The position numbers and the translations under genes were made by a program. Shown piece after piece: positions 4,798 to 31,075 of a DNA stretch of 64,000 bases. The stretch is from Chrysomallon squamiferum (Eukaryota; Animalia; Mollusca), in assembly GCA_012295275.1 (NCBI GenBank), contig CM022666.1, forward strand, positions 6,696,001 through 6,760,000, given 5' to 3'. How positions within the stretch are numbered: position 1 is the first letter of the stretch; the number at the start of each line of letters is the position of its first letter. The notes under the pieces are model-generated. The model saw nothing but the letters and a program-made list of their open reading frames with translations, ran no database searches and was not told the DNA's origin.

Positions 4798-4984
4798 CTG
4801 TTGAAATAGAAACAAGATTATTGTTAATAAACAGTTTCCGGTGTTGTTACTATTACAGTTTATTGTTGCTGTGGTTCTGTAGAATCTGTTGAAAAAAAGA
4901 TATTTCAGAATTTAGATGTGAAAACATGCATGAATGTAAAATTCATATATACATATGCACATACAAAGATAAATGCATAAATAT

Positions 4985-5015
<31 letters not shown>

Positions 5016-5203
5016 GATAGATGTATGCATACATATGCATATACACAGATATACATAATTATATGCATACATGCACAAATATAAACACATGAGAAATTAA
5101 GAAAGAAAGAGGGGCAATGTCAAATAAAAAAAATATATTAAAAAATTACATAATTTTCAAAAATTACTGTATTAACATTTATCACATACACACACAGACA
5201 CAA

Positions 5204-5234
<31 letters not shown>

Positions 5235-5585
5235 TAAACACACATAAATATATATATATACACAGACACAAATATATGTACACACACATACACAAATATA
5301 CACACACAAGACACAAATATACACACACAGACACAAATATACACGCACAGACACAAATATACACACACATACACACACAAAAATATATAAGCACACAGAC
5401 ACAAACATATACAAATATATTGGCTTTGAAGTCTTCTCAAATTTTAAAATATAATTACTTGATTAATAATGATGATATCAGAAGGAAATAACAACAACAA
5501 CCACAACAACAAAACATGTTTATTAAAGAGAAAAAAAAACACAAACTTTTTAAACTCATTTTTTACCTAAAACGCCATTAATCAC

Positions 5586-5669
5586 TTCACACATGCATTC
5601 TTTCAGTCAGTTCACACATGCATTCTTTCAGTCAGTTCACACATGCATTCTTTCAGTCAGTTCACACAT
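5586..5669. repeat. 25-bp tandem repeat, about 3.3 copies
   Basis: ttcacacatgcattctttcagtcag at 5586, 5611 and 5636. Confidence 0.9.
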
Positions 5670-5924
5670 CTACACATTCAATTACACTGCCAATTACAGC
5701 AGCACAGACACCTTAACAATCAGGACACCTCTCTCTCTAACAAACACATTACAAAAAAAAAGACAGGTTCTAAGCTTACAACATGTATGTCGTCTTAATT
5801 TTATTCCAACGCAGACACCAGACTGGGAAATCAATGCAGGAGACAATGGAAAGAACAGAGTAGAATAATACACTGCAGAAATGTCATGCACACACACACA
5901 ATAAAATAACAATTCTTTCATCAG

Positions 5925-5990
5925 AGCCGCGCGGCAGCCATTACCATGGCAACAAATGACCGTCTGAATGCCGGCAGTGGCATGCAGTCA
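5925..5990. promoter_or_regulatory. GC/CpG-rich element with an RFX X-box (ATTACCATGGCAAC, 5940-5953)
   Basis: GCCGCGCGGC next to an X-box in an otherwise very AT-rich intron. Confidence 0.4.
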
Positions 5991-6825
5991 CAAAAAGGTG
6001 ACAGTATTAAATAATCACATAATTGATGGGTGTGATGTGAAAGTAATGATACGGCAATCAGTCTGGGATCACGGGTAAGTGGGATCAATTCTCGGAGGTG
6101 GCAGATGGAAAATATTTTTAATTTTTAAATTTTTACTTGCTTATTTAATTATTTATTGACTTATTTACTAATTATTAATTCATTAATTAATTTTTTTTGT
6201 TTATATTTAATTACATTGAAGTATAAAAAGAAAAGGAAAAATATAAGGAAGGTAAGATGGAGAAAAAAGGAAAAAAAGAAAGATAGTGGAGGGAGAGTTA
6301 GGACGAGAAAGGGAAAGAAAAGAAAGAGAGAGGGAAGGAAACTAAAAGGGAGAGAGAGAGAGAGGTAAACAAATGAGTAAGGAAAGGGGAAACAAATGAG
6401 CAAAACAGCTGACAAGAAACAAAGAGACAATAAAAAAAGGGTGACTTATACGTACCCACTTAACAATATATAAACATACTGCCATTCAAAAAAGCACAAA
6501 TATATAAATACACTACCATTCAAAAAAACACAGACAGATAAACACACATATCTACATCAACACAGGAACAACACATAAACATACCACAATGACATGTATA
6601 CCAACACATAAACACACTAGCACGCATACAGATACACACATACATCCTCATACATCTGTCTTATAAAACAAATACATAAAAAGTAATGTGGCTTGGCCAC
6701 ATTATGTAAGTAAATGCATAAATATGTGAACACCTCTGTTTACACACACATCTCTACGGCAGTAAATGTGACAGGTTTAGTTCTCTGTAAATCAGGAGAA
6801 AGATCTCTTGTGTTGGTTGAAATAT

Positions 6826-7490
6826 TTGTCATGCAATAAACTTAATATCTACATACTTGTAACATAATTTAGATAGCTAGTGATATAGTATAGTTTTAAT
6901 AGTTGTCACGCAATAAATGTAATATCTATATACTTGTAACATAATTTAGATAGCTAGTGATATAATATAGTTTTAATAGTTGTCACGCAATAAAGGTAAT
7001 ATCTATATACTTGTAACATAATTTAGATAGCTACTGATATAATATAGTTTTAATAGTTGTAATGCAATAAATGTAATATTTACATACTTGTAACATAAAT
7101 TAGGTAGCTAGTGATATAATATAGTTTTAATAGTTGTAATGCAATAAATGTAATATCTACATACTTGTAACATAAATTACATAGCTAGTGATATAATACA
7201 GTTTTAATAGTTGTCATGCAATAAATGTAATATCTACATACTTGTAACATAATTTAAATAGCTAGTGATATAATAGTTTTAATAGTTGTCATGCAATAAA
7301 TGTAATATCTACATACTTGTAATATATTTTAGATAGCTAGCGATATATTATAGTTTTAATAGTTGTCATGCAATAAACTTAATATCTACATACTTGTAAC
7401 ATAATTCAGATACATAGTAATATAATATAGTTTTAATAGTTGTTATGCAATAAACATAGTGTCTACATACTTGTAACATAATTTAAATAT
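6826..7490. repeat. 77-bp minisatellite, about 8-9 copies
   Basis: gcaataaa anchor recurs at 6833, 6910, 6987 and onward. Confidence 0.9.
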
Positions 7491-7736
7491 CTGTTGAATG
7501 TTCAAAGCAATATAATGTAATTTATGTGAGGTGTATGTCTGCCTGTCTATATATGAGACAGACATTTTTGAGTATGGAAATTAGGCATCTACATACTCTG
7601 ATCTGTCTGTCTCTCTGTCTGTAAGTATGAGAGATATTTGACTAAGGAAGGTAGACTTTGCCAGACAGATATCTACTAATATCAGATAAAATTCTTTGAG
7701 TGCTTATTACCGTAGAGATTACAAATCTATCAATAA

Positions 7737-7779
<43 letters not shown>

Positions 7780-9077
7780 TGTATTTCACATATCAAGAAC
7801 TAACTAACTGTAAAAAATAATTAACCTGCTTCAGTTCAATAAAAATAAAAGTAATAATACTATTAACATCTTTAATTATAATAAAATTAACAAGAGCAAT
7901 AATAACCAAAAAAAAAAAAAAAAAAAAAAATGTAATAAAAGTAACAATGATAGCAAAAACAGTAGGAATAATAGTAGCAGTATAGTAATAGTAGTAAAAG
8001 TATTAGTGTAAGTATCAGTATCAGTAATAGTAGTAGTAGTAGTAGTAGTAGCAGCAGCAGTAGTAGTGGTGGGAGAAGAACTCTAGTAATAATAGTATAA
8101 ACAATGGTAACAGTAGTAAAAATAATAATAGTAATAACAATAATAAGTGTAATAGTAATAATAACAGCTGCATTAGTAACAACAGCAGTAATAATAATGA
8201 TGATGATGATGATGATAGCATTAATAACAAGAAGAAGAAGAAGAAGAAGAAGAAGAAGAAAAAACTTTAAAAAATATTTCAATAAGCCTGACGTTGCTCA
8301 AGAACAGTTTCAGACTTAAGGAAATTCATGTTACATCAGCACATTCAGTGAAGCATAAAAAGTGAAATGTGATGTCATGGTTACAGCTATTTGGTCACAC
8401 ATCTGTGACTCATGCAGTTATTTGTGTGTTGAGGGAAAGTGTCAAGACAAAGTCAGTGAGAAACTCTTCTGTTTCAATTTCCCAATAGAAACAGAAAAGA
8501 AAGAGAAACGAAACATTTTATTTAATAAAATGCACATTAAGATGTTGATGTGTTGCATTATGCATATCACTAAAAGCCATGCAGACAAAAAGAGAAGAAA
8601 CATGATCTTCTTCTATTTTTTTTATTTTTTTTTATTTTTTGCAGAAAGAAATCTTTCATGAACACCAACCCATCGATGGGAAAATGTTTACTACAGAATT
8701 TTATAAATTAATCAGACATTACTGCCTTGATAGGGAAACAGTCTGGATCCAAATAATATTTTTTTTTATTTTGAGAAAAATAAAATAAAATAAAATAAAA
8801 TAAAATAAAATAAAATAAATAAACAAAATAAAATAGCTCAGTTTTAAACATTTTCCTTATAGTTTTGAGAAAAACCCCATCTGATTACTGAGACGACCCC
8901 CTGACAAAACCATTGATCAGTATGTTAATATTAAATTTATACAGACACAATGAATAGTTTACACAGTGAGTCACATACTTAATGTTACCTGAGCTGAGGT
9001 TAATGACAGGTATGCTGTCACCAACACATGTGACATTTGTAATATTCTAGCTCTGTGTATATGATCCCTCATAATAC

Positions 9078-9131
<54 letters not shown>

Positions 9132-9801
9132 CTCTGTGTGTTTGTATAATCTGTAAGTGTGTATATATATGTATGTATTGGTGTATGTATTATATAAATG
9201 TGTATGTATGTATGTATGTAAGTATTCATATATTAACGCATGTATTATTCTGTTGATGTATTAATATCTTATATGTATGAGTGTGTGTATTTTATTATAT
9301 ATATCAGTAGCTATGTGTATGCTTATGTCTATATGTATTTATGTGTGCTCATGTGTATCTTTATGCATATATTTGTACATAAAGCAGAATATTTACACAC
9401 ACACAGACACATACACACACACAAATACATGTATTATTGATTTTCTTACAACAATTCCTGTGGTATGTAATTATTACTCCAAAGCTTAATTTACCTACTG
9501 CTATACCAATAATCAGCTGAACTATTTATAGACATTGTTATAAAAATAACCACTCACTGTGGTAACTGGAGAAATATTAATTTCATTTACTTATTTTAAG
9601 GACTATTAAAATGTTGTTCAGTCAAATGTATCTAAATACATTGTATATATATTTCTAAGTCTGGGGTGTGCAAACCAAGGCTTGTGAGGGATTTTAGTCC
9701 TGCCCACCAAATGAACTCTTGGATAGTAATTATTATATTAACTCCAGAGCAAAGCAGCTTCTCTTCCTAGCACCCCTTTTTGGTGCTCAATATTGAAGAC
9801 A

Positions 9802-9898
<97 letters not shown>

Positions 9899-11654
9899 AT
9901 CTATCTATCTACCTGTCTGTCTGTCTGTCTATATATACAATATATTTGATATCTTGGCCCTCCTCCAAAACACTGTACAGCTGTCTGGTCCCCCCCCCCC
10001 TCCCCCAGAAGGTTGCTGACCCCTATTCTAAGTTATTACTTTTTTTGGTTTCTTGTTAAATGGTTAAATACTGTGCTTATTTGTAAATTATGTAACTATA
10101 TATGCATATATTTATATATATATATATATCTTTTAAAATTATTATTATTATTTTTTTTTTAAATATGTTTATGGTTATAAATTATCTAAATGTTTTTTGT
10201 TCATTTAGATGTAATTTTGGGGGATATTTTTATTTTTATTTTATTTTTTTTTTGTCAAAATATCTCTTCTGGCATTTTAACAAATGGTTTCACGTAACCT
10301 CTGTTAGATAAATATATTTTTTAAAATTTTAAAAGCTAACTAAATAAATAAACAAAAATTTATATATCGCAGTTTATTTTCTACTGGTTTGACTTTCTCA
10401 AAAGAAATTTTATACGAAGAAAAACATTTTCGAAATTTTAATTGAAAAAGACAAAAAATATGTTGTATGAGATTATTTGGTTTGCTTTCAAAAAAGACTA
10501 AAACAAGAAATAAACACAGAAAACAAATATTTTCAAAAAGTGGAAAAAGAAAATTTAAATTAAAAAAAAAAAAAATCTGTTGCCTGACACCATTAACTTT
10601 GGTTACAAATCAGTGCATTGAGAGCAGCCATCTTGAAAAAGTCATGAATATGAAATACAGAGGAAACTATTTCAAGTTATTCAAATTCAATCAATACAGC
10701 TGAAAATGAGTGGGTTTTTTATTCCACTCTCAGGAACAAAAAAAAGAAGAAGAAAGTTTTCTTTTGATCTGGAAAGGAAAACAATATTTGAAAGGAACTG
10801 AGGCAGAAATAGCTTTGATTAAATGAGAAAGAGAGAGACAGACACAGACAGAGAGAGAGAGAGACAGAGAGAGAGCATTTATAAATATCAGAATATATTT
10901 ATTCAGTACATTCAGCAATGTTTTCCTTTTAACATCCATCATTCATCTATACAAATTATTGCAAAAAAAACACACAAACACACAAAAGAAAAAAAAATAA
11001 GAAATAATATCAAGAAGAAGAAGAAAAACAATAACAGCAATGTAAAAGTCCATCCATATTTTGACTGTTCGCCAGACTGTCTAGCAACCAATCCAATGAT
11101 CCATCCATGATCCATTTATTGACCTATCCATCCATTCACCCAAAAAACCTGTCCGTTCATCCATAAAAATCCATATACCTATCTGCTCATTAAAGCTAAC
11201 ACTTTCCGAAAGTCCTATAATTGTATTGGTTTCATTGATCATGTATGAAAACAAAGTCTGCAAAAAGTATTGATGGAACTGTCAAAAAGGATGTGGATAA
11301 GGAAAAAAAAAAAACTTCTTTGCCTAAGCAAGGTCATGTGTCTTGGCAACAAAGTCACAGAAGTCAAAGATAAAAAAAATAAAAATTGTCACTTTATGAA
11401 TGAGTGAGTGAGTGAGTGAGGAGTGAGTGAATTATTTTATCCTGATCAAAGAGTGGAGACATCAAGGAATGAAATGTTGAAGGTCATGTCAAGAATCTGT
11501 GGACTCATGGGAAATGAACTCATGCAGCAGAACTAAAGGAAACTGAAGCCTTGGGTGACATGAAAGAATTAAATATTCAGTCTCAAAAAATAAAAAAATG
11601 AAGAGAAGAAATATAGAAAGAAATGATCAGGAGTAAAAAAAATTGTGGAAACAT

Positions 11655-12660
11655 GCAAAATGAAGTACTGAAACGACAGAAGAATGAAGTACTGAAAAGA
11701 CAGAAGAATGAAGTACTGAAGAGAAAGAAGAATGAAGTAATGAAGAGACAGAAGAATGAAGTACTGAAAAGACAGAAGAATGAAGTACTGAAGAGACAGA
11801 AGAATGAAGTAATGAAGAGACACAAGAATGAAGATAAAAGACAGAAGAATGAAGTAATGAAGAGACAGAAGAATGAAGTAATGAAGAGACAGAAGAATGA
11901 AGTAATGAAGAGACAGAAGAATGAAGCTCTGAAGAGAAGAAGAATGAAGTAATGAAGAAAAAAAGAGAAATGAAGAACAGGAGACAGAAATGAAGTACTG
12001 AAACAGACAGGAATGAAGTACTGAAACAGACAGAGGAATGAAGTACTGAAGGAGAAGGAAGAATGAAGTACTGAAAGAGACAGAAGAATGAAGTACTGAA
12101 GGAGAAGGAAGAATGAAGTACTAAAGAGACAGAAGAATGAAATGCTGAAACAGACAGAGGAATGAAGCATGAAACAGACAGAGAATGAAGATAAGGAGGA
12201 ATGCTGAAAGAGAAAAGAATGAAGTCAAAGAGAAGAAGAATAAGTACATGTTTATTTTCAACAATAATAAGTCTTGGAAAGGAAGTGGATGTGACAAGAA
12301 TGAAGTGGAGAAGGAAGAATGAAGTTGAAAGCAGGAATGAAATGCTGAAGTGCATGAGAAGTGATGAAGAATGAATGTTCTGTTATGTGAAAAATAATTC
12401 TTGAAGTGCTGGATGTGACAAGAATGATGGAAGTTCAAGAATGATGTTCTGTATGTGAAAATAATGAAGTTCTGTATGTAACAAGAATAAAGTTCTCTAT
12501 GTGAAAATAATGAAGTTGTGTATGTGACAAGACCAAAGTACTCTCTGTGACAAGAATGAAGTTCTGAATGTGACAAGACCAAAGTACTCTCTGTGACAAG
12601 AATGAAGTTCTGAATGTGACAAGAATGAAGTGCTGGAAGTGACAGGAATGAAGTGCCGAA
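11655..12660. repeat. Degenerate ~24-bp purine-rich minisatellite (gaatgaagtactgaagagacagaa) grading into a gtgacaagaatgaagttct variant
   Basis: Produces the QKNEVLKR repeat ORF and the F/S/L-rich antisense ORFs in the track. Confidence 0.88.
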
Positions 12661-13518
12661 GCAGTAACCCCTGTGACACCCACACTGAAACACAGTGATC
12701 ATTTTGTGAATGTTGTTCTGTTAAATTCAATTAAGCTGTGACGTGGTTAGAAATAAATCAATAACATCCCGTCAATCTGTGTGTCTTCCTTTTTACATTC
12801 TCTTTGATTTCTGTCGTGCTTTACTATCATTTTGTTACCATGGTAATTTTAATTTTCAGTTTTAAAATGATCCACATTAATTCTGCACACAGAAAATGTT
12901 TGATGATTTAAACATTTTTAAATAAAAAATTAAAAAGACAAAAATTTTGAATTATAAAAATTAAGATCCCATAATTTAAATGTATTGGAAAGTCTAGCAT
13001 TAAGTCTAGTTTAAATGATAATAAATTATAACTGCAAACTATGTTATAGAATGGTACTATTTAACAATTTTAAAATATTAATAAAGGCTTTCAGTAAGTC
13101 TAGTTAAAATGATTTATAAATGTATTAAAAAGACTAGCAGTAAGTCTAAGTCTGTGATTTATTTACTATGACCTTAGTAGATCACCATGACAAAAGTTTA
13201 TCAAGTGTGAGTTAGACTTGCCCCCAGGCAAAAACAAATCTCTCTAAGTAGACAAAATAAGCCCATTAATAACTGGACTAAGACAAAGAAAGAAAGAAAA
13301 CAGAAAAGATAAAACAAAAACAGATCATGAAAATAAAACATTAAAGGGTAGATTTTGTTCAAGATTAAATATTAATGTTATAACTATTTTATAGTTAATG
13401 AACAAAATAAAAGAAAGAAAATTAATTTCTTGATTTGTAAATTTGCATTTCGCCAAGCAAGCACCAAATTGTAGTTGAAATGGAATTTTTTAAAAATTAA
13501 ACAAAGCAATAACTAATA

Positions 13519-13572
<54 letters not shown>

Positions 13573-13841
13573 AATAAATAAAAGTACTTTCTATATTACT
13601 ACTACTACTAGTAATATATATATATATATATATACAAAGAAATTAATAATAAAATAATACCAAAACAATAAAAATGAACAAACTAATAAACAAATAAATA
13701 AACCTCTAGTTACTGAAATGATCTGTTTTGTGTGTAAACTATCAAGTGTTCTCTCTCTGTACTTAACTTTCTGCTTGATTGCCTGTTTCTCTAATGAACC
13801 ATTCACCATGCCTCTTACAACTGGGCTATTTCAAGCACACA

Positions 13842-13876
<35 letters not shown>

Positions 13877-15022
13877 CATGATTTAATGTGTTAACAACAT
13901 AAACACAAAACACAAACACATCATTAAAACACACCATGGACGCCAGTGTTCAGTGTATGAACAAATCAGGACAGAGTTTGAACATAATATTATAGACTGA
14001 CACAGGAAATATGAACATGACCTTAAAATATGAATGTAACATTAACATATTAAAACAGAATAATTATCAACATAATATTAGCACATAAAAATAGGAATGC
14101 AACATTAGAACACAGTTTAATGCATTAAAAAACAGTGTGAACAAAACATTAAAATGTGTTAAAACACATAAATAGAATTTAAATACATTAAATATAAACA
14201 TAATATTAACACATTAAAATACAATGTAAACATAACAAACACAGAATGTAAATATTAAATATAACATAAAATACACTATATTAACAACATTCTGACACAA
14301 AATACACAGTTTCTAAAAATCACTTCATGAAAGTTTGAGAAATGTATAAATGTCTGAAAAAAAAAATTAAAGCACTGAAAGTCTGAAAAGAAACATAACT
14401 TTGAAAAAGTCTGAAAAATCAAAACTTCACAAAAAGTCTGAAACCCCATCCCCATAACATCACAAAGTCTGAAAAATCATAACTTCATAATCACAAAGAA
14501 CAAACATCACCAACATTCTGTTCAAAAACCTTGAATATTCTTAGCCAAGTTTATAAACACAACAACCCCACCCCCACCCCAAAAAACCCATCCATCACCT
14601 CAATGTGTCAAGCTTTCATTTCATCACATTTTAATCTTTAAAGAGTTTTGAATCTGATACCAGGGAGGGGAGGCAGTTTAATGAAGTAAGGGAATATTTC
14701 AGCTAAAGCATAAACCATCCCATCTTAAGATCTTAGTGCGTGTGTTCTTAGCTAGGCTGCAGTTGAAGAGAAAAACGTGTTTGTTCAATGTTAGTGTACT
14801 TCACCCAGACAGGTGAAAATTACTTATTAAGCATTCTGAAGTGCTGCGGCGAACTGTATACTGACATGTGGAATGAGAAAATGTGCGAGGATTTACCAAT
14901 TCACACATGTGTATGAATATATAAATATATATTCACAGGTATGTGTGAATCTGCATAGATACCTATACACATATACGTTTGTAAAGTTTATAAACATATA
15001 TATATATACACATACACACCTA

Positions 15023-15068
<46 letters not shown>

Positions 15069-15590: not shown

Positions 15591-15642
<52 letters not shown>

Positions 15643-15771: not shown

Positions 15772-15804
<33 letters not shown>

Positions 15805-16674: not shown

Positions 16675-17499
16675 GAAACTATGTTCATTTATAAAATTTA
16701 CCCATTCACATAAACAAGCCATTAATTTTTACACTTTACAGGAATTACGCCCAACAAAATGAATGAACCAATCACAAAGTAGCTTTTTAATGTAAGCCAA
16801 TCAAAATGTGTCAAGGTCTCACACTACACTTTACATTAAACTAATGTTAAAATAGTCTATCTTGTCAGTTGTAATAGGATATGTTTCTGCACTGATGCTG
16901 AAGATTAAAACCAAGTAGAAATCAAACTATTGATAATACTTGTTATTATTATTATTAGTCTGTGTGTTTGTTTATACAAACCACACACATATATGTACAC
17001 ACACATAAACGTAAATACATACACATACAAACTTAGACACGTTAATTCTCATTTCTCACATATTCAAATATGTTCATATGAAATGTGTATTCACAGGTAC
17101 TTGTACATTCAACCATGTATATTTATGACAGATCTAACACACACATACACACTGTATGAACACACACATACACATGGATGGACACACACACACACACTCA
17201 TAAAAAATCTTTACATATCAATTGCTTCTTTTAATTTTGTTACAATTCATGTCTTGGTTATTTTTTTTTCTCAGTTTTTGCTCTGTTTTCTTTGTTAGTG
17301 ATGTTAAAAATATTTTACATATTAATGAAAAGAAAAAAAAATATATATAATAAAACATACTTTTCATGATCAAAGTCTACCATGAAAATCAACAAATAAA
17401 CAAAGTAAAAAGCAATGAAAAACATTACACAGTCTAGCATAACTTTCAAAGGGAAACAATTAATATAAAATAACTGAAAATTCCTTAGAGTTATCTCAC

Positions 17500-17528
17500 C
17501 TTGTTATCCTTCGATTAGGCAAAGTCAT
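17500..17528 (-). CDS. dlg1: Candidate alternative first coding exon, MTLPNRRIT(R), in frame with the PDZ3 exon
   Basis: caagATG with an in-frame upstream TAG. AAG|gtgaga donor in phase 2. The junction reads ITR-EPRK, identical to the vertebrate DLG1 pre-PDZ3 residues. Confidence 0.6.
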
Positions 17529-17673
17529 CTTGGAAGCTGTCAGGAGCTACGGTTCAAATCCTGCTAGAACTGGTAAAAACCCCACGACACACACAAACAC
17601 ACAAAAAACAACACAAAAATCGACTCCGGAACAAGTATGTGCATATGCAGATGTTTGTCTAGTCTTGTCAAAT

Positions 17674-17688
17674 ATCTCCCATGGCAAC
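17674..17688. promoter_or_regulatory. RFX X-box-like element upstream of the candidate first exon at 17528
   Basis: ATCTCCCATGGCAAC, about 150 nt upstream of the ATG. Confidence 0.45.
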
Positions 17689-17932
17689 CGTGTTTCTTAC
17701 AGATCCATTAGGAAGAGCACATTGAAAACACTGATGATTATTGCAATCAGTCGTTTTTTTAACCTGCACGATTTGATCATTCACGTATATATATATATAT
17801 ATACAAGAGATTTATTCAAAAAATCAAAAAAATCTTTAAAAAGGTCACAGAAAAGGTCAAACTGTTTATCCCAGAAGTGCACATAAAGCAAACAGTGAAT
17901 GAACTAGAATTAAATCCTTGGAGAAAAAAAAT

Positions 17933-17996
17933 CTATACACTCAAGCGTATCTCTCCCTCGTTCAAAACCTCCAGCCTCGAAGTCTCGTGACAGAAT
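17933..17996 (-). CDS. dlg1: Candidate alternative terminal exon, (R)FCHETSRLEVLNEGEIRLSV*
   Basis: cttttctaacatatag acceptor in phase 2, compatible with the 31076 donor. A CpG-rich 64-nt block beside AT microsatellite, ending in TAG, with minus-strand AATAAA at 17816-17811. Confidence 0.4.
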
Positions 17997-18639
17997 CTAT
18001 ATGTTAGAAAAGATTTATTTATATTCCACATACATACACAATCTATACATATATATATATATATATGGTGTGTAAAAATACATGTATTTATATTCCACAC
18101 AAACATATATATATATATATATAGGTATGTAAAAATAGTTATATTCTGCACACATATGTAAAGCATTTATATATGTGTGTAAAATAGATGTATTTATATT
18201 CGACAAATAATTATGTGTGTACATGTGTGTACGTGTGTGTGTGTGTGTGTGTGTGTGTAATCTGTATGTGAGTGTGTTTGTATAAAAATTCAACACATAT
18301 TTTGTGCTTGTTTTCTGTGAATACAAATTTAAACAAGAGAAGCTAATTAATTTCTGCATTAACTCCGAGATGAAAACATTTTTGACAAAACAGTCCACAC
18401 ACAAAACTTGAAATGAATGAATCGGTAACCTCAATGTGAAAGATTTCTCAGCTAACAGCCAAACAATTCACTGTTTACTGGTATTTTATCTATAGCTTTA
18501 CTGTTCTTGTAACTTAACCTGAAGTTTTCAGTCTTTAAGGCAGTTAGACAGAAGAAGTTTTTTGTTTGTGAGAGTGAGAAAGAGAGGCACAGAGAAAAAA
18601 ATACAGAATGAAACAGAGACAGACACAGAAAAACATGAG

Positions 18640-18945
18640 TAACATAACCTATCAGATAAACAGAAGAATGAATAAATAAAATATCACAAAGACAAAAAAA
18701 TAAATAAACCATCTAAAAGCCAGAAGAATGAATGAACAAACATGACCTATCAGATAGACAGAAGAAAGAATAAATAAACTTTCATAAAGACAAAAGAACT
18801 ATCAGATAGACAGAAGAAGAAATAAACTATCAAAAGACCGAAGAATGAGTAACATAAACTATCTGATAGACAGAAGAATAAATAAACTATCAAAAGACCG
18901 AAGAATGACTAACATAAACTATCAGACAGACAGAAGAAGAAATAA
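18640..18945. repeat. Degenerate ~60-bp tandem repeat (aactatcagatagacagaagaa core)
   Basis: The core recurs about 5 times. Confidence 0.7.
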
Positions 18946-19153
18946 TTATAGTTTCAGTCTGGGAAATAAATAAACAAACAGATTTTCAGACAAAACAGAA
19001 AAAAAAAAAAAAAAAAAAAAAACTGCTGATCTGTGAATGAAACACTGGGACCTGATGGCGATACTTAATTACAACTGCCGATGCAGAACCCAGCAGCCAT
19101 GACGATGTACACACATGATAGTTTAACCTTCTCTGCTGTATTTATCTACTCAC

Positions 19154-19200
19154 CACAGTTTTAGTAACGAATACAATCCAGCACGAAAGAAAAAACACAT
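19154..19200 (-). CDS. dlg1: Candidate alternative first coding exon, MCFFFRAGLYSLLKL(W), in frame with the PDZ3 exon
   Basis: ATG after in-frame stops. Consensus GTG|gtgagt donor in phase 2. Lies in a non-repetitive island. Confidence 0.42.
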
Positions 19201-19925
19201 CCACACACTAACTAACTGAATGTTAAACTTCCCATCAGTTCACTACAGAATGCACATTCATCAGCCTACTTACATGACTGCACCGAACACATCAACACCA
19301 CCATTATTATCACCACCAGCAGCAACAACAACAGCAACAACAACGACAACTACAAAGGTCCTCCGGTTATAAATCTTATGTATCGTATTCCATTGTGATT
19401 TCGAATGAGAACACCAGAACGTTTGTACAGTCAAGCCATGTGTGTGCGTATGTGCCTCTCTCTCTCTCCCTCTCTCTCTTTCTCTATCCTGATTCTCCAG
19501 TTTGGTAAACTCATCTATTACCAAGCCCCAATGAGAAGGTCTGGGAGATTCTATTTCGCTGAACCTGCGTCACAGCCAAACTGTTGGTTAGCTGTGCAGT
19601 TAGAAAGAGCTGGATGAGAGCTGGCCACACTGTGTGTTGTGTTGTGTATGTGTGTGAAACTGCTGTACTTCTCTTCCAGTTCAGGCTGTGAGAGCCCTCC
19701 TATCTCTCTCTATCTCTCTCTGTATGTGTGTGTGTGTGTGTTTTATAGTTTGGTAGTAGGTCACAACAGCTTGCCTATTTTTCTTTGTTGTGGATTATAT
19801 ATATTTAAACACGAATATATATACATATATATTCAGGAATGAGGAAGAACTGACATAGGTGGAAAGACAGATGTATATATATATATATGTATATATTTTT
19901 AAATATATATACAGAGAGAGAGTTT

Positions 19926-20018
<93 letters not shown>

Positions 20019-20565: not shown

Positions 20566-20596
<31 letters not shown>

Positions 20597-21060: not shown

Positions 21061-22859
21061 TTTTTTCAGCTGTACAGTATCACATTATTTAACAAAGTAC
21101 AGTATTACATTACATTATTTAATATCCTATATTGCACAACAGAATATTGTATCATATTTCATTAGGTACTCCACATAACTATATTATATATCATGACAAT
21201 CTCATATTACTTTGCATTATCAAATTTAGTTATATATTTAATTTTTAATTTATTTATTTTTATTTATTATTACTTGTTGATATATTTTCCTTTATATCAT
21301 TTACTTCATGAAATTAATCATATATATTCATGATCATAATATGAAGTTAATTCACGTAAACAAATAAATTTATTTCAGGAAAAATATATTTAGATTTAAT
21401 TAAATAAAACCAGATTTCATTTATTAAAAATGACTAATTGATTTCATAAAAATGATCACATAAAGAAAAAAATCTGATTCAAATTTCATTAATAAAAATG
21501 AATGTTTTAAAAAAAAATTATGAAACTAAATCATTAATTTAATTCTAGAACTAAATCTACTTATTTTCAAAAAACTGAATCTCAAATCGATAATAAATAC
21601 ATTTTTTTTTTCTTCAATTCTGCACAATGTTTATATTTACTCTAAAAATTAACTCCTTGACTTAATTCACCAAAAACAAAAACAAAAAAAAAAACAAAAA
21701 TAAATTTAAAAAAAAAATACCCCAGCAACAAAACAACCACACTAAATAATATTTATTCTAAAAATTAACTCATTAACTTAATTCAAACAAAAAAAAACAA
21801 AACAAAAAAAAAAAAAAAAAAAAAACTCCCTCCAGCAACAACAAAACAAAACAACTGACACTAAATAAACCAGATTAAGAAAAGACAATAACAACTTAAT
21901 CACCAACAAACAAAAGAAAGAAAGAGGTGGTGGTTTTTTTTCCAATTAAACCAGTCTGTGGAGATTATTTGCTGTTAAACTAGTAATTACAGTAAGTTTT
22001 CTTCCAGCTATCAAACACTGCATATCCTCTCAGGCTCTCTCTGTTCACACTGGTATAAGCTGTCCAGAAAACGCTATCTTCTCGTGGCCATGGAAACACA
22101 TTCATTCTACAGTCTATGGCTGGAACATTCTTTCTCTGTGTGTGAGAGTGTGTGTGTGTGTGTGTGTTTGCAGATTTTGGTGGGTGTAATGGAGGGGGAG
22201 AGATATATTTGTTAGGGAGGTGTTTGTGTTTTTAGCAAAGGGATCTGTGATTGTAACAAAGGGGTTTTGTATTATAATAAGGTTTATATTTGTGTGACTA
22301 GGGTTTGTGGCTTTGTATTTGTATGTGGTTTAAGAGGTTTAATTAAGAGGTTTAGTAGGAGTGTGTGTGTCTGTAGTTATGTGTAAATTAATAATCATAC
22401 AAATACACATACACATACACATTAATGTATATGCAGAATAATATTTATACACCCCCCTCTTCAATATGGACACCTTCTATATAATTATATTTAGTGATTA
22501 AATTATCATACCAATACATATTTAAAAGATAAATATTTATTGGTATATTTCAATTGCAAAATTTTCAATAATGTTTTTTTAAAAATGACTTAAACATGGA
22601 TCCCAGCCCCATTCACTATGTTACATTCTGGAATCTTAAATCATATAATATTATCTCTATATATATGTTTCTATGTATGTGGGTTTAGAGGTCTGTATAC
22701 CTGTATGCATGTAAATATATTTATATGTATGTATGTGTGTGTATGTACACACACACACACACACAAACACACATATTTTAAATCTATATACTATATATAT
22801 ATTCATAACAATCATTTAACTGTAACAAAAATGTACAACAAATAAAACAGTATCAACCC

Positions 22860-23480
22860 AGTTACCTAGCCAGCAACAGCGAAATAAATCCTGTATTCCA
22901 TGAAAACAAAAACTCACAAACAATCCAGAAAACCGGGCGAAACAAGAACAAAAGTATCCTGGATCAGCAACAACAACCTAATCAAGGCCACACCTTCACA
23001 ATCAAAATTAAACCTGAGCAACTAAAACTCAACCGGTAACTTAACAGATCAACCAGTGTATCTTTCTTTTCTTCTTTTTTCTTCTCTTTTTTTTTAACTA
23101 ACCTTTCCCAGCAAACCTGAGGCTTGGCTGTTTTTTTTTTTTTGGTTATTATTTTCTTCCAATTATCACCTTTCCAAATGAAGAAACAGTTAATCCTTCA
23201 ATCGATGAAGTATGCAGCAAAAGTTCAAAAATACCTGTTTATCGCACACAGGTAAGAGAAACATGGACAGGTTAACGAGCGAAAAAAGAAAGTACGTGCT
23301 GAGACCCAGTCTACTGCTTGTCTACGAATACCGGTTGACCTAGATTTTCAAACGGGTGGTCAAGACGATATAATGTCACCTGAAGCCCTCTGATAGGCTA
23401 CCTGCCTACCTGGCAGGTAAACATTTTTTTTTTTACCTGTGTGTTACCTGATTGAACAGAGTGTTGTGTAACGTGACATA
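22860..23480. promoter_or_regulatory. CpG-enriched island with clustered CAGGTR (ZEB/Snail-type) and Grainyhead-like motifs; candidate internal promoter or enhancer
   Basis: Eight CAGGTA/CAGGTG sites (either strand) in 23232-23450. AACCGGTA at 23031 and TACCGGTT at 23329. Confidence 0.4.
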
Positions 23481-23780
23481 AATTTACCTTTAACAATTCA
23501 CAATGCATTAAGGTTAGGTAACAGTTACAGTAAGCCCAGGATGGTTTTAATAAGGCAGAAGTACTTTAAAAGAACAAAAGAACAGACAGGGGTTGTATCA
23601 AAATGGTTATAATCTCTTAATCTGCTAGATAAGAGGATAAAGAATTTAAAAAAAAGTTAGCGAGAATAACGAAAACCAAAAATAAAATAAAATGAAATGA
23701 AAAGACTTTGAGGTCAAACAACAACATTTATTCCTTATCTTTAAGTCATAAGCAAAAAATAAAAATAAATAAATTAAAAA

Positions 23781-23822
<42 letters not shown>

Positions 23823-24011
23823 AATAATAATAAAAACAAGATAAAGTAAATAATATAATAACAATAAATAAATAAATAAATAAATAAATAATAAAGTAAA
23901 AAAAAAACAAAAAAAATAAAGTAAAAATGACATAAAATAAAACAGATTTTAAAAATAAACTTTTTTTACAATTTTAATCTAATATTCTCTTCTTTTTTTT
24001 TTTTACTTCAA

Positions 24012-24025
24012 GTTGCCATAGTAAC
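24012..24025. promoter_or_regulatory. RFX X-box
   Basis: GTTGCCATAGTAAC, a near-perfect palindromic X-box. Confidence 0.45.
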
Positions 24026-25228
24026 AGTGGAAGACAATAAAGAAATGAAAACAACTTTAATTAACTTCCAGAGGTTTATATTTCCTGGCCTACGGGGTTT
24101 CAGGATCAATACTGCATTAAGGAAAGAGATTATTTTCTATTCTGCTCTGTGTTATTATTTATTTATTTAAATTCAAGAGGAAGCAGACGAAACATAATTG
24201 AAGAAATTATTGTTATTACTGTTGCTGTTGTCGTTGTTGTTGATATTTTTGTAACTGATGGTATAATCATCATCATCATTATCACTATCATTATTATTAT
24301 CACTAACATTATTATTATTTTTATTATTTATGCTATGTATATATATATAGACACACAGACATGCACACATGGTTTTACACATAAAATTTAAAACATTATT
24401 TCTTATTCTAAAATCAAGAAAACATATTAGTGTTGACCTATTTAAAACCATGTTATATTATTGTTATTTACCAGCTAGTTGTAACATACAAGTGATGTAG
24501 TAGTAGTAGTTGTTGTTGTTGTTGTTGTAGCAGTAATAGTAGTAAAAGATACTGAGTTTAAGGTAACACATTAATGTTACACTATTTCAATCACAAACGT
24601 TATGTTGTTGTTATTTACAAGCCAGTCGTAACACACAAGTGATGTAGTGGTAGCAGTTGTTGTTGTAGTGGTAGCAGCAGTAGTAAAACACACCAAATTT
24701 AAGGAAACACAAACAAGTTACACTGTATTTATTTAGTAATACACAAATGAGGTTGTAGTTGTTGTTGCTGTTGAAGTAGTAGTGGTAGTAAGACACACTG
24801 ATTTATATTAACTTCAGACAAACAAAATCTGTTATTGTCTTCATCAACCATTACTAAAAAGCTAAAACAATAAGTAAACTGTTTATTGTTTTTATACACT
24901 AAATGTATTTAACAAAAAAATATTTTAAGAACTTGTCTACTAATGATACACCAGTGAAAATCTGATATGAAAATGTCAGTTGTGTTAAAAATATTTATAA
25001 ACCTTTTCTATGTTTCATTCAATTCATCTTTCAGTGTCTTAAGGCAATACATTCTATGCAAAAAAACAACAACTCTTTATATCATAAACCTACTTACATT
25101 AGTATTTCAGAAAAACAGATTTTTATTTTTATTTTAAATAAATTTAGATGATTTCCAAGTCTAACCAGTGCCCTAGAGGTATAACATACTATATAATAAA
25201 AAAAAAAAAAAAAAAATCATTTTATTAC

Positions 25229-25280
25229 TCTCCTGTCTGTGAGAGGGTGTGTATAAAAGATTACTTATTGCTATGATTAA
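25229..25280 (+). mobile_element. Short fragment of the same SINE core
   Basis: tcctgtctgtgagagggtgtgtataaaagattacttattgcta. Confidence 0.35.
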
Positions 25281-25664
25281 TCCGTATGTTCACAGATGTC
25301 TATTTATGACTGACTCACTCATCTACTCATGACTCACATTCACTCACTGACTTCAGGTACGTTGTCCTTGACATTTATTTCAATAAGTAGCCATGCATGG
25401 CAACACATCACTTAGTCACTTGTTCTCTCTCTCACTGCTTGGTTTAATCTATTTGTCCACCTTGACATTTATTTCATTATTACTCACTAACCTAGTGTAA
25501 CAGAGCATTAAACTAAAGCAGTTATCTGCCTACAGCTACTCACTCACTTACCTACTCACTCAGAGTTTTAAACTGAAGATCAAAGTGCTCACTTAATATT
25601 TTAAAAGATAATTGATATTTATTTAAATACAAATAGTTAATACTCTATGACATTGTACTATAAG

Positions 25665-26370
25665 CGGATATTAAAAAGTAACATATAATAAATACTTCAG
25701 GTATCTATCTCAGTTATTATTAAAAAGTAACGTAATAACTGAAGTATCTATCTCTCAGTGATTATTAAAAAGTGACATGTAATAACTGAAGTATCTATCT
25801 CTCAGTGATTATTAAAAAAATGACATGTAATAACTGAAGTATCTATCTCTTGTTGATTATTAAAAACTGACATGTAATAACTGAAGTATCTATCTCTCAG
25901 TGATTACTAAAAAATGACATGTAATAACTGAAGTATTTATCTCTCAGTGATTATTAAAAAGTGACATATAATAACTGAAGTATTTATCTCTCAGTGATTA
26001 TTAAAAAGTGACATGTAATAACTGAAGTATCTATCTCTCAGTGATTATTAAAAAGTGACATGTAATAACTGAAGTATCTATCTCTCAGTGATTATTAAAA
26101 ACTGACATGTAATAACTGAAGTATCTATCTCTCAGTGATTATTAAAAAGTGACATGTAATAACTGAAGTATCTGTATCTCAGTGATTATTAAAAAGTGAC
26201 ATGTAATAACTGAAGTATCTATCTCTCATTAATTATTAAAAACTGACATGTAATAACTGAAGTATCTATCTCTCAGTGATTATTAAAAACTGACATGTTA
26301 TAACTGAAGTATCTATCTCTCAATGATTATTAAAACTATACCTGTAATAACGAAGGATCTTTCTCAGTAT
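25665..26370. repeat. 47-bp minisatellite, about 14 copies
   Basis: Unit aagtgacatgtaataactgaagtatctatctctcagtgattattaaa. Confidence 0.92.
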
Positions 26371-27596
26371 GAATTAATTTTGTGTATGTATGTATTTGTG
26401 TGTCTGTCTGTCTCTCTGTCTGTGTGCATGCTGATAACAGTGATTACTTCTGAATCCATTAACAAAAAAAAAGATCCAACTGTTTTTTGAATTTTTTTTT
26501 TTTTTTTTTTTTTTGGTGGCAGGATCTTTTTCTTATTTTAATTTATTTTATCTTAGATACTTTTCACCATGCTCTGAACAAAAAAGAAGAAGATCCAATG
26601 CTACTGGTTTCAATATCATGAAGCTGACTTGAACATCAGAACGTCTTTATGGTTTAATGTACACTGTGTTCAAAAATAATTACTGGAGATCACATAACAA
26701 AAACTAATCTGTAAGTGGCAGCTGTCACTTTAAAAGCTGTAACTATTTTTAATTATTACACACACTTTAAATTTATACGTGATGCCATATGAACAAATAT
26801 ATATATATATATATGCATTAATAGTTTTATTTGTGCAAAGAAGAAAAGATAGGGAAAAGAATAATGACAAAAATTAAAAGAAAAAAATTAACAACAACAA
26901 CAACTACTACAGCAACAATAATAATAATAGGAAGAAGACGAAAGAGAAATAAAGAATAAAATAAATGAAAATATCAAAAGTGTGTTAAAAGGCAAAAGAT
27001 TATTTAAAATCTATTTAAATTCCTTTTTACCCTTCACTGTCATTATAATTTCATTTTACATATTTGTTTATTTATTTATTTATTCAAAACTGGAATTCAG
27101 TATTTACTGTACATAATATTACATCATTTGATAAATTAAAACAAAATATTATTATTATTATTATTATTATCACTAATTTTTTATTTTTTTATTTTAAATA
27201 TAATACTCAGTTTATGAAAATAACTGACTGTACTTTTAACGTCAGGTTTTATAACACCTATATATCACCTTAATTGATAAAGATCTACATTAAAATGTCA
27301 CTTATTTTATTTATTAATTTATTATCATCATTATTATTTTACGTTTTTTATTTTTTATCTTTTGCATTTTTTAAAATTTTCAATATTTTTGGTTTCTTTA
27401 TAGATACAATAAATGATGAAATGAAATATATGAATAAATATTTACCCAAATCATTCATATACATGCTTTTATCTATTTGTGTGTGTGAATATATGTTTAT
27501 TTAAATGTGTGTATGTATTTTTGTGCATATGTATTTATGTTTGTGTGTGTATGTATGTAATGTATGTATTTGTGCATGTGTATCTATGTCTATGTC

Positions 27597-27643
<47 letters not shown>

Positions 27644-27842
27644 GTGTCTGTTTTTGTGTATAAGTGTCTGTATCACAAAACAGAGACTCAGAAGTCAATA
27701 CATCTATTTCAAGAAACAGTTCAGGTTAAGTTGTTCATGTCATAATGAACGTGTCATATGTCATCATGCACATTGGCCATATTGCAGACATTTTTTAAAA
27801 AGCTACACTGTTTTACAAGTTCAATATGTCTAGCCAATAATA

Positions 27843-27877
<35 letters not shown>

Positions 27878-28136
27878 TACATTATAAATACAACTTAAAA
27901 TGCTGACATTTCTAAACATAATGCAACATAGAACAGAATTAAATTAACAAACACATTATTAATTTTTGGTTTCTTGTATTTCTTTATTTTTAATTTTTAA
28001 ATTAATTATTTCATTTTTTATGTTACTTGAACCACAGATACTGAAATGCAGGCATATTTAATATTTAATGATACATATGTATGAGTATGTGTGTGTGTAT
28101 GTATGTTCATGCATGTATGTTTTTGTGTGTGTGTGT

Positions 28137-28215
<79 letters not shown>

Positions 28216-29035
28216 ATACGTATGCCTGTGTGTCTGTGAATATGTATGTAGTATGTATCTATGTATATCTGTGTGTATGTATGTGTATACATTCATGTAT
28301 ATCTATCTGCACATTGTATATGTATGTACATATGTATGTACAAACACATACATAAATAAGCAGCATGTGGTTAACTGCCATTCTTTCACGTAACACACTA
28401 AGTATCAAATTACAAGATAAAAGAGAGAAATGTGATTTTCAGCAGAAATAAAAACATTGGTGTGGCAGGACCACAGTAATCTGGTTTACATGTTGCAAGG
28501 TTGACCTAGCAGCACAGGTCAATCACAGGTAAACAGGCAGGCCACATACCTCAACGCTTTGAGCTCTTACCTGTGTTACCTGTGTTATTAAATATCCACA
28601 TTAGTGCCTTTAATGTGTGAACAGATGTACAGATATACAGACAAGACACCCATATGGTTGTACATAAAGATGAACATATCTATATTAACTCAAAATATAC
28701 ATTCCATAAACACAGAATTACACATACACAAGGTCATACAGACAAAATATATATAAATATGTACATCTTAAGATAGAAAGTCAGACATACACACACATAC
28801 ACGGACAAACACACAGTGAGACATTCAGACACAAATACACATGAACACACACACAGAGACAGACACAAACATGCACAAAAATAAAGACAGACACATACAT
28901 ATTCACAAAGACAAAAATCACACACAAATATACACATACAAAGTAAGACATATTCACAGACATCAGACACACAAATACACATAAACAGACAGACAAACAG
29001 ACAGACAGACACTCACAAAAATGAAGCAGACCTAC

Positions 29036-29094
29036 CTTCGAACACGAGGATCAAAAAAATACGGCTCTTTTTTCTTGTGATTCGAATTCAGCAT
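29036..29094 (-). CDS. dlg1: Candidate alternative first coding exon, MLNSNHKKKEPYFFDPRVR(R), in frame with the PDZ3 exon
   Basis: ATG with A at -3 and an in-frame upstream stop. AAG|gtaggt donor in phase 2. Lies in a CpG-rich island with an upstream CCAAT box. Confidence 0.65.
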
Positions 29095-29363
29095 TCTGTT
29101 TTGTGTAGTCCACAGAACAACATAATGGTATAAAAACCCAAACCCCTAACACTTTATAGACGCAAAACACAAACACACAAACACGCGGTGGAGAAATCAC
29201 TTTTTCTAAAAATAAAAAAACCGACAACAACAACCACCACAACACACTCCAATATGCTCCTCGCTTATAGCCGAAGAACAGAAAATTGTCACAACTGTCA
29301 CTGCGACATGTTCAGTGACAGGATTAACAGACCCGGCAGTGTCAGATATTCACGTCTGCCTTT

Positions 29364-29373
29364 CTGATTGGCT
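29364..29373 (-). promoter_or_regulatory. CCAAT (NF-Y) box upstream of the candidate internal first exon
   Basis: AGCCAATCAG on the minus strand within the CpG-rich stretch 29040-29410, about 270 nt upstream of the ATG at 29094. Confidence 0.5.
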
Positions 29374-29415
29374 GCCGGCAGAGCGGGTTTTGGGAATTTA
29401 CCTATGCGCTTTTAG

Positions 29416-29446
<31 letters not shown>

Positions 29447-29509
29447 AAATAATCAATAAGGAGATAATAAGAGAGGAGGCAGCCTGCTTCACACACAAAT
29501 ACAACACAC

Positions 29510-30175
29510 AGTTAGCAGGGGGGGACCGTGTCAAAAGTCAACAAAGTCTGAATTAGAGATGTTGCCATATGGTGGACTGGCTGCAGTGTAATAGGGAGAG
29601 AGGGTTTTATGAGATGTTGTTTTTTTGTTGTAAATTTGTGTTTGCAGAACTCGATATTCATCTAGTTAGCAGGGGTCGTGTCAAAAGTTAATAATGCCTA
29701 AATGAGAGATAATGTTACGTGGTGGTATATAATAGGTGATTTTTATGAGGTATTTTTATAATGATGTTTTGTAAATATATATATATATATATATATTTAA
29801 CATAAATTAGCAGGGGCTGTGTCAAGAGTTAATAAATTTATCTAGAGATCATTCCATTCGGTGGATTATATTACAGGGCAGTTAAATAAATGAATTACAT
29901 TTAAAAGGATGTTCTGTACATTAGTATGAACAATTCTACACACATGTAACAACATATGGTTAGCAGGGGCTGTGTCAAAAGTTAATCAATTCTAAATTTA
30001 GCTATAGATAATTCCCTAAACAGGGACATTTTGTTTAGAAGGATGTTTCTGTGCATTTATGTGAACAACTATATATACATGTAACAATGTATGATTAACT
30101 GGGGCTATGTCAAAAGTTAACAGAAATAAATTTACCTAGAGATAATTCCATAACAATGACAGTTTTATAAGGATA
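29510..30175. repeat. Old degenerate tandem repeat with a ~140-155-bp period, 5 copies
   Basis: ttagcagggg(c)tgtgtcaaaagtta...agagat core at about 29512, 29667, 29807, 29959 and 30096. Confidence 0.75.
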
Positions 30176-30327
30176 TCCTGTTTATTTATTCTGAACATTT
30201 AAGGATAAATATGTATATTTGAGTGAGTGTCCATAATATATCAAGCACTCTGATAAAGAAACAAGAACATCAGACAGTAATAATAATATAACATTTGTCA
30301 ACATTCACACACATATGCATGTACAAA

Positions 30328-30372
<45 letters not shown>

Positions 30373-30907
30373 ACACACACACACAACATACATACACAGA
30401 ACATACACATATACAAATTTGAATTTCATAATAATAAAAGAAAAACAACAAAACACATCATACATAAGCAAATATGAAAATAAAAAAAATCATTTAAAAA
30501 AATACATTCCACCTGAAAAATAAACTATTAACTATTGACCGTGTTTTTTAACTTAATATTATTTTGATACTACAATACTGTACAATACTAGATCATATCA
30601 GACAACTACAGTTACATACATATATTATTATACATAATACATACATACATATACTCAAACCTGTGTACCCTGCATAATACATAATATATACAATTAAAAA
30701 ATGTGCATAAATTCAACAACAAATATGTCATGGTAATACATATAAATACAAACATGTATATAAATTTGTAGATACATGTATACATATATACAGAAACATA
30801 CATACGTATTATAGATATACTGAAAACATTTGTAATACACACATATATACATTGATATACATTTAAATATACAGCTTACATCTTATACCCCCCATAGTCA
30901 CATACAT

Positions 30908-30999
<92 letters not shown>

Positions 31000-31075
31000 T
31001 CTCTCTGTATTTATCTAAATAAATATCACACACACCACATGACACACTAAGTCAAACAGACTTATTTCCCCTTAC

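What the first reader, a model, noticed from the sequence alone, without database searches (positions are those of the whole stretch)
4798..31075. Array of phase-2 internal first exons plus a terminal exon: a Dlg locus that may be expressed as separate N-half and C-half scaffolds
Seen in sequence: the 26-kb intron before the PDZ3 exon (phase-2 acceptor, G|GAA CCG AGG) contains discrete non-repetitive, CpG-richer islands at about 29.1, 23.2, 19.3 and 17.6 kb. Three islands hold an ATG preceded by an in-frame stop and followed by a good donor in phase 2, giving MLNSNHKKKEPYFFDPRVRR-, MCFFFRAGLYSLLKLW- and [18 protein letters not shown] fourth donor builds the ATG across the splice. A stop-containing phase-2 exon with AATAAA lies at 17996-17933. 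Established: Dlg-family genes use alternative N-termini (L27 beta versus palmitoylated alpha forms), and PDZ3-SH3-GK forms a structural supramodule. Inference: this locus makes PDZ3-SH3-GK-only proteins with interchangeable leaders from different promoters, plus a PDZ1-2-only protein. Any one short exon could be chance (about 1 in 3 for phase); the joint pattern is the evidence.
Basis: partly seen in the sequence, partly recalled or inferred. Interest (0 to 1): 0.85.

Follow-up and report, generated by a model that had tools for sequence, protein, structure and literature searches.

The report
Internal promoters make half-length mollusc Dlg
A mollusc discs-large gene holds, inside one long intron, two short start exons conserved in snails and octopus (one also in clams) that likely yield a half-length scaffold lacking its first two PDZ domains, as known for mouse Dlg2, whereas the proposed stop exon for the other half is an untranslated exon of one short form.

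Summary
The C-half idea holds; the N-half idea fails where tested. The window is part of a mollusc Dlg gene, closest to Gigantopelta. All listed islands, ATGs and donors are present. The 29094 leader has homologues at the N-terminus of PDZ3-SH3-GK-only records from nine named molluscs of three classes. The 17528 leader has homologues in limpet and octopus. RNA contigs from one study show that acceptor 17996 is used. In 3 of 3 runs with a spliced contig its partner is an island donor (23103, 22866 or 19154), not 31076. Contigs run through the AATAAA, which is altered in two runs. So 17996-17500 is an internal 5'UTR-plus-leader exon, and the MCFFF frame becomes an upstream ORF on that splice. 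No junction into 4797 was observed in this species. Mouse Dlg2-zeta has the same plan: a non-coding exon and a coding exon spliced to the PDZ3 exon. What is new is the mollusc case and a strongly conserved, undescribed leader motif. Verdict: new member of a known kind, interest 0.4.

The parts
31076..31280 (-). PDZ2-PDZ3 linker exon of full-length Dlg; phase-2 donor at 31076
   Evidence: tblastn with Gigantopelta Dlg P0004, about 70% identity; sequence
29036..29480 (-). Alternative first exon A (5' end unknown, island about 29.0-29.5 kb): ATG 29094, leader MLNSNHKKKEPYFFDPRVR, phase-2 donor 29036
   Evidence: Homologous N-termini in 9 named molluscs; best of 127,924 positions; CpG-richest window of the intron. 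No RNA laid here.
23103..23132 (-). Non-coding upstream exon (part seen), donor 23103, spliced to acceptor 17996
   Evidence: Loose end of a contig of run X1 maps here
22866..23077 (-). Second donor (22866) of the 23 kb island, spliced to acceptor 17996; a short upstream ORF stops at the donor
   Evidence: Loose end of a contig of run X4, 209 nt of which 30 were shown
19154..19344 (-). Upstream exon of the 19.3 kb island, donor 19154, spliced to 17996; the frame from ATG 19200 (MCFFFRAGLYSLLKL) stops at that joint, so it is an upstream ORF there. The donor at 19274 lies inside it and is untested.
   Evidence: Loose end of a contig of run X3, 190 nt of which 30 were shown
17500..17996 (-). Internal exon B of 497 nt: 5'UTR with six upstream ATGs that all close, then ATG 17528, leader MTLPNRRIT, phase-2 donor 17500.
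   Evidence: Acceptor use and read-through of the AATAAA; upstream ATGs; homologous leaders in Patella and Octopus
4626..4797 (-). First PDZ3 exon; phase-2 acceptor 4797, the inferred common target of donors 31076, 29036 and 17500
   Evidence: 98% identity to Gigantopelta Dlg
3806..3907 (-). Second PDZ3 exon (coding part matched)
   Evidence: tblastn
828..932 (-). PDZ3-SH3 connecting helix exon (coding part matched); SH3 and GK lie beyond the window
   Evidence: tblastn

Best explanation
The intron before PDZ3 in this mollusc Dlg gene likely holds internal promoters that make PDZ3-SH3-GK-only proteins of about 480 residues with either of two conserved leaders. Form A would start in the 29 kb island and splice its 20-residue leader to PDZ3 (junction inferred from homologues). 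Form B uses one of at least three upstream donors (23103, 22866, 19154; shown in RNA contigs) spliced to exon 17996-17500, whose last 29 bases encode a 10-residue leader (onward junction inferred from homologues). The many upstream ATGs likely damp or gate translation of form B. Lacking L27 and PDZ1-2, the short proteins would keep PDZ3, SH3 and GK ligand binding but lose PDZ1-2 channel clustering, so they likely act as a one-PDZ scaffold that competes with or complements full-length Dlg. The conserved motif of leader A is predicted to be unstructured and is most likely a short binding or targeting motif (inferred).
For: In the search not seeded with a leader, 11 records had PDZ3 within the first 60 residues; 8 carried leader A homologues and 3 leader B homologues. 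Over all three searches, 30 of 390 stored proteins start this way: 25 type A, 4 type B, 1 other (two searches were seeded with leader A). Elysia crispata has the full-length (857 aa) and short (485 aa) forms under one locus tag. Homologue leaders find the window's two exons as clear best hits. Four RNA runs hold 39-61% of the words of 17400-19900, and three show canonical splices into 17996. A mouse precedent was amplified from brain (PMC6389146). The model of the Patella short form folds PDZ3, SH3 and GK (mean pLDDT 70.8) and gives the leader no secondary structure.
Against: No junction into 4797 was seen in this species; the one contig that crosses 17500 runs on into the intron. The RNA is contigs of one study, which cannot show starts or levels. 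The Gigantopelta cluster (12 of 12 members) and the Haliotis cluster (15 of 35 listed) showed no short isoform. Several short records come from annotations that split the gene in two (Patella caerulea and Dreissena, neighbouring locus tags). Leader B rests on two species. Two gene models (Biomphalaria, Plakobranchus) place leader A internally. No protein-level or functional data exist.
Confidence: 0.85

Rival explanations
1. One reading: 31076 also splices to 17996, the RNA is cleaved at the AATAAA, and a PDZ1-2-only protein is made.
For: The acceptor is real and in phase with 31076, with a stop 64 nt in. N-half records exist elsewhere: Patella P0151 and an unnamed scallop-like record P0203 with a 7-residue tail. 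Mouse Dlg2 lists a retained-intron stop form before PDZ3. Contigs drop rare variants.
Against: 3 of 3 runs with a spliced contig at 17996 use island donors; the fourth run has no cover there. Contigs of X3 and X4 cross the AATAAA and carry a changed base in it. The 20-residue tail has no homologue among 390 stored proteins (best 28 of self 102). P0151 reads like donor read-through in a split model.
Confidence: 0.07
2. The island exons also serve as internal cassettes of the full-length RNA: exon B as a stop-containing exon that triggers decay, or exon A as an in-frame insert through a weak acceptor just before ATG 29094.
For: Exon B has a working acceptor and a strong donor. Cryptic decay exons control mouse Dlg3 (PMC3552424, passages). 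An AG lies directly before the A-ATG at 29094 in phase 2. Two gene models carry leader A internally.
Against: No 31076 partner was seen at 17996. 25 of the 27 records with leader A have it at the N-terminus, all keep the Met, and the two internal cases share no upstream residues. The AG before 29094 has a purine-rich upstream tract.
Confidence: 0.1
3. The 19.3 kb island also splices straight to 4797, giving a third, cysteine-bearing leader (MCFFF) or a leaderless start built at donor 19274.
For: Donor 19154 is used in RNA and is in phase with 4797; donor 19274 has a consensus intron start. Skipping exon B would need no new signal.
Against: The only observed partner of 19154 is 17996. No homologue of the peptide among 390 stored proteins (best 22 of self 79), though no database search was seeded with it. 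Phase 2 arises by chance often.
Confidence: 0.15
4. The short records are artefacts of split gene models and the islands are enhancers or spurious transcription.
For: Some short records come from split annotations. RefSeq clusters of the closest relatives show none.
Against: Independent artefacts would not share one peptide motif across three classes at the same splice position. One locus tag holds both forms in Elysia crispata. Canonical splices link the islands.
Confidence: 0.03

Closest known systems
Mouse Dlg2-zeta (NM_001243046; PMC6389146, results section, discussion and supplement 3 parts 1-2 read)
   Same: A non-coding exon and a start-codon exon lie in the intron before the first PDZ3 exon and splice onto it, giving PDZ3-SH3-GK; amplified from brain by RT-PCR.
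   Different: One of several vertebrate paralogues, with one described leader; here a mollusc Dlg gene with two conserved leaders and at least three upstream donors. Homology of the zeta leader to the mollusc leaders was not tested.
Mouse Dlg2-eta (same paper)
   Same: Internal promoters make a C-terminal-only protein that survives upstream deletions.
   Different: Eta starts after PDZ3 and has only SH3 and GK.
Alpha and beta N-terminal isoforms of DLG1, DLG2, DLG4 (PMC7962242, passages)
   Same: Alternative first exons swap a short N-terminal targeting segment.
   Different: These keep all three PDZ domains; leaders A and B here have no cysteine and no L27.
PSG supramodule of PSD-95 (PMC9490041, abstract) and the PDZ1+2 versus PDZ3 modules of hDlg (PMC2121072, abstract)
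   Same: The internal start falls exactly at the boundary between the two modules.
   Different: These are studied as engineered or proteolytic fragments, not as natural isoforms.
Human DLG3 short transcript starting before PDZ3 (recalled, not verified in any call)
   Same: Recalled as an alternative first exon joined to the PDZ3 exon. DLG3 heads a table of promoter-switching genes in PMC5470264 (one passage), without domain detail.
   Different: Different leader; could not be checked.

Membership tests
Dlg-subfamily MAGUK gene | Three PDZ domains in order with Dlg-type sequence | tested here: met
   Second half of PDZ1, PDZ2 and PDZ3 exons map in order with 89-98% identity to Gigantopelta Dlg; the first PDZ1 exon was not found in the window.
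Dlg-subfamily MAGUK gene | SH3 and GK downstream of PDZ3 | not testable with these tools
   The window ends after the connecting helix exon; no genome is held. Homologous short records have them.
Dlg2-zeta-type PDZ3-start isoform | Start-codon exon in the intron before PDZ3, in frame with it | tested here: met
   ATG 29094 and ATG 17528, phase-2 donors, conserved.
Dlg2-zeta-type PDZ3-start isoform | Non-coding upstream exon spliced onto the start-codon exon | tested here: met
   Donors 23103, 22866 and 19154 join acceptor 17996 in RNA contigs.
Dlg2-zeta-type PDZ3-start isoform | Observed splice of the leader exon to the PDZ3 exon in this species | tested here: inconclusive
   No loose end at 17500 in 4 runs; one contig runs into the intron; a filter leaves some records out.
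Dlg2-zeta-type PDZ3-start isoform | Capped transcription starts inside the intron | not testable with these tools
   Only contigs were offered.
Alternative terminal exon | Receives the upstream coding donor and ends at a used poly(A) signal | tested here: not met
   Partners are island donors in 3 of 3 informative runs; contigs cross the hexamer, which is altered in X3 and X4.
Palmitoylated alpha-type leader | N-terminal cysteines in a used coding leader | tested here: not met
   Leaders A and B have no cysteine; the only cysteine-bearing frame (19200) closes on its observed splice.

The most novel reading that the evidence does not exclude
Starting Dlg at PDZ3 is an old, general feature of bilaterian Dlg genes, and molluscs have kept for the whole age of the phylum a dedicated one-PDZ scaffold whose leader motif (K-E-P-Y-aromatic-aromatic-D) is a new targeting or binding signal. 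A single invertebrate Dlg gene would then reach by promoter choice and upstream-ORF control the scaffold diversity that vertebrates reach with paralogues, possibly under RFX control. Leads beyond molluscs: a recurring Met-initiated extension before DLG2-type PDZ3 exons and Atlas clusters of 472-583 aa PDZ-SH3-GK proteins in chordates and arthropods.
Probability: 0.3. Interest if true: 0.65.

Novelty: new member of a known kind. Interest (0 to 1): 0.4.

Why it matters
[quoted passage not shown] This locus gives a concrete, testable case: two short isoforms with leaders kept across gastropods and cephalopods (one also in bivalves). Knock-downs, probes or antibodies aimed at the N-terminal half would miss them. 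The internal promoters may also explain why some mollusc annotations split Dlg in two (inference). The conserved leader motif is a defined target for a binding assay. It is not a new kind of system.

Tried and rejected
No whole genome was held. Junctions into 4797, and donor 29036, were not examined in RNA: only 17420-18020 was laid. Run X2 had no cover at the 17996 acceptor, which is no evidence. A profile of leader A plus the PDZ3 start found the leader only in mollusc-named or unnamed records (top 120 of 7595; only 7997 candidates were scored). In the 50%-identity library none of the 102 new hits of 106 carried either leader motif; short forms may hide inside clusters, so absence outside molluscs is weak. 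No solved structure covers the leader. The first fold, on 14 sequences, failed (mean pLDDT 44.7); the second worked for the domains but says little about the leader. The DLG2-type extension looks like leader A in register but scores only 0.8-5.5 against 47-57 for mollusc leaders, and unrelated stretches reach 14; homology was rejected as unshown. A likeness of the 'terminal' peptide to a clam linker exon (28 of 102) was taken as chance. The MCFFF comparison used the wrong frame and was redone. The donor matrix is a rough recalled one and scores two RNA-used donors below 4. Ten paper searches found no description of these mollusc isoforms and no confirmation of the recalled human DLG3 short form; the library lacks most subscription papers, and the supplement of PMC9282427 with its DLG figure was not read. 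No earlier scan findings were returned. No complex prediction was run.
Full report
What the locus is. The window is AT-rich, microsatellite-rich animal DNA. The minus strand carries a Dlg gene. The PDZ3 exon at 4797 matches mollusc Dlg proteins, best Gigantopelta aegis at 98% over the whole query. tblastn with that protein maps exons at 46663, 46001, 43828, 41700, 31281, 4799, 3907 and 932 in order. The linker exon at 31 kb, a poorly conserved part, is about 70% identical, so the species is probably a related gastropod (inference). No genome was held, so SH3 and GK lie outside what I could read.

Observation. The CpG-richest 400-nt windows of the intron lie at 29.0, 23.1, 19.1, 17.6 and 5.7 kb, with 10-15 CpG against a mean of 2.3. 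The phase argument is weak on its own. With a rough recalled donor matrix, 19 of 1773 GT sites score 4 or more and 7 of these have an ATG-open phase-2 frame; at 5 or more it is 5 of 11, two outside any island.

Two leaders are conserved. Listing the clusters of ten mollusc Dlg hits, a step not seeded with any leader, gave 11 records with PDZ3 in the first 60 residues. Eight begin with a homologue of the 29094 leader (Patella caerulea, Octopus bimaculoides, Dreissena, one unnamed record) and three with a homologue of the 17528 leader (Patella, Octopus). Two searches seeded with leader A added Bradybaena, Arion, Nucella, Potamilus, Elysia marginata, Elysia crispata and six more unnamed records. 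In all, 30 of 390 stored proteins start at PDZ3: 25 type A, 4 type B and one that looks like acceptor read-through. In the seed alignment the Met and K-E-P-Y-x-x-D are invariant in 8 of 8 rows. Scanned against both strands of the window, the homologues rank 29073 first of 127,924 positions (56.25, next 25.5) and 17528 first of 127,942 (31.5, next 19.5). Elysia crispata has both the 857-aa and the 485-aa form under one locus tag. Against this: the Gigantopelta cluster (12 of 12 members) and the Haliotis cluster (15 of 35 listed) show no short form, and some short records come from split gene models.

RNA overturns the terminal exon. Four RNA runs of one study hold 39-61% of the sampled words of 17400-19900. 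Laid on 17420-18020, three runs have a contig that stops fitting at the 17996 acceptor and goes on in other sequence. Those letters map to donor 23103 (X1), donor 19154 (X3) and donor 22866 (X4), each followed by GT. None maps to 31076; X2 has no cover at the acceptor. The X3 contig spans 17997 to 17420 and beyond, and two X4 contigs together cover 17999 to 17563, so both cross the AATAAA at 17816-17811. Both carry a different base at 17814, inside that hexamer. The simplest reading is that 17996-17500 is one 497-nt internal exon that ends in leader B. It holds six upstream ATGs whose frames all close before the donor. On the 19154-17996 splice the MCFFF frame meets a stop at the joint, so it is an upstream ORF there. 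Limits: these are contigs of one study from libraries that may hold DNA, although spliced joints at GT-AG ends argue for RNA; rare variants are dropped; the 17500-4797 junction was not seen, the X3 contig running on into the intron.

Mechanism. Shown: the island exons splice into exon B; leaders A and B are conserved N-termini of PDZ3-SH3-GK records elsewhere. Inferred: promoters in the islands, the junctions into 4797, translation of the short forms, and damping by upstream ORFs. The start point falls at the boundary between the PDZ1+2 module, which binds Shaker-type channels, and PDZ3 (PMC2121072, abstract); PDZ3-SH3-GK behaves as a supramodule with its own specificity (PMC9490041, abstract). 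The short protein would therefore keep PDZ3, SH3 and GK partners and lose L27 and PDZ1-2 functions. A model of the Patella short form folds the three domains (mean pLDDT 70.8, pTM 0.55) and gives the leader no secondary structure, with pLDDT under 50 for residues 1-13. A conserved but unstructured stretch is most likely a short binding or targeting motif; its partner is unknown.

What is known. Mouse Dlg2-zeta has a non-coding exon and a start-codon exon spliced onto exon 15, annotated as PDZ3, and was amplified from brain (PMC6389146; results section, discussion and supplement 3 parts 1-2 of 3). That is the plan of form B. A similar human DLG3 transcript is recalled but was not verified. Other papers were seen as passages only (PMC7962242, PMC10620527, PMC5470264, PMC8295539, PMC3552424, PMC9282427). 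Ten searches found no account of the mollusc isoforms; the library is incomplete and the supplement of PMC9282427 was not read.

Beyond molluscs. The leader profile found no non-mollusc named carrier and none among 102 new representatives. Those hits did include 15 of 60 scored short records with a recurring Met-initiated extension before a DLG2-type PDZ3 start, but it scores no better against leader A than some unrelated stretches. The Atlas lists clusters of 472 aa (180 members, mostly chordate) and 583 aa (152 members, mostly arthropod) as nearest to the Patella short form. These are leads only.

Verdict. The C-half isoforms are very likely real (0.85), with two leaders rather than four. 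The N-half from 17996 is unlikely (0.07). It is a new member of a known kind, with an undescribed conserved motif. Interest 0.4.

Noticed in passing
It may be another promoter or an enhancer; mouse Dlg2 has a start just before its PDZ3 exon.
   Followed up: partly
window 1574, 4248, 5940, 12834, 17675, 22084, 24012, 61472: Eight matches within 3 mismatches to a recalled RFX X-box palindrome, against 0.90 expected; 0 of 100 shuffles reached 8. I chose the motif after seeing some of these sites. One lies inside exon B and one in the 5.8 kb island.
   Followed up: partly
window 51000-51500 and 61300-61700: Non-repetitive islands in the intron before the second PDZ1 exon (46663); the first has 16 CpG in 500 nt. 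Scallop isoforms P0177 and P0180 begin with a leader joined to that exon, so more internal promoters may lie here.
   Followed up: partly
window 31076-31072: Reading through donor 31076 meets a stop at once, so intron retention alone would give an N-half protein. Patella record P0151 looks like such a read-through; unnamed record P0203 ends in a 7-residue tail after the linker.
   Followed up: partly
proteins P0398, P0406, P0408, P0409, P0411-P0414, P0416, P0418, P0427, P0447, P0460, P0472, P0478: A recurring Met-initiated extension of about 19 residues directly before a DLG2-type PDZ3 start in unnamed records; one (P0409) continues into the next exon. It may be an unannotated vertebrate PDZ3-start isoform. 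Homology to the mollusc leader is not shown.
   Followed up: partly
window 17638, 17741, 17753, 17786, 17814, 17963: Sequence differences in exon B in runs X3 and X4; alleles or editing cannot be told apart without DNA of the same animals.
   Followed up: no
window 28580-28550 and 23448-23380: Clusters of strong donor-like sites, two scoring above 8, with no role assigned; the second cluster lies in the 23 kb island.
   Followed up: no
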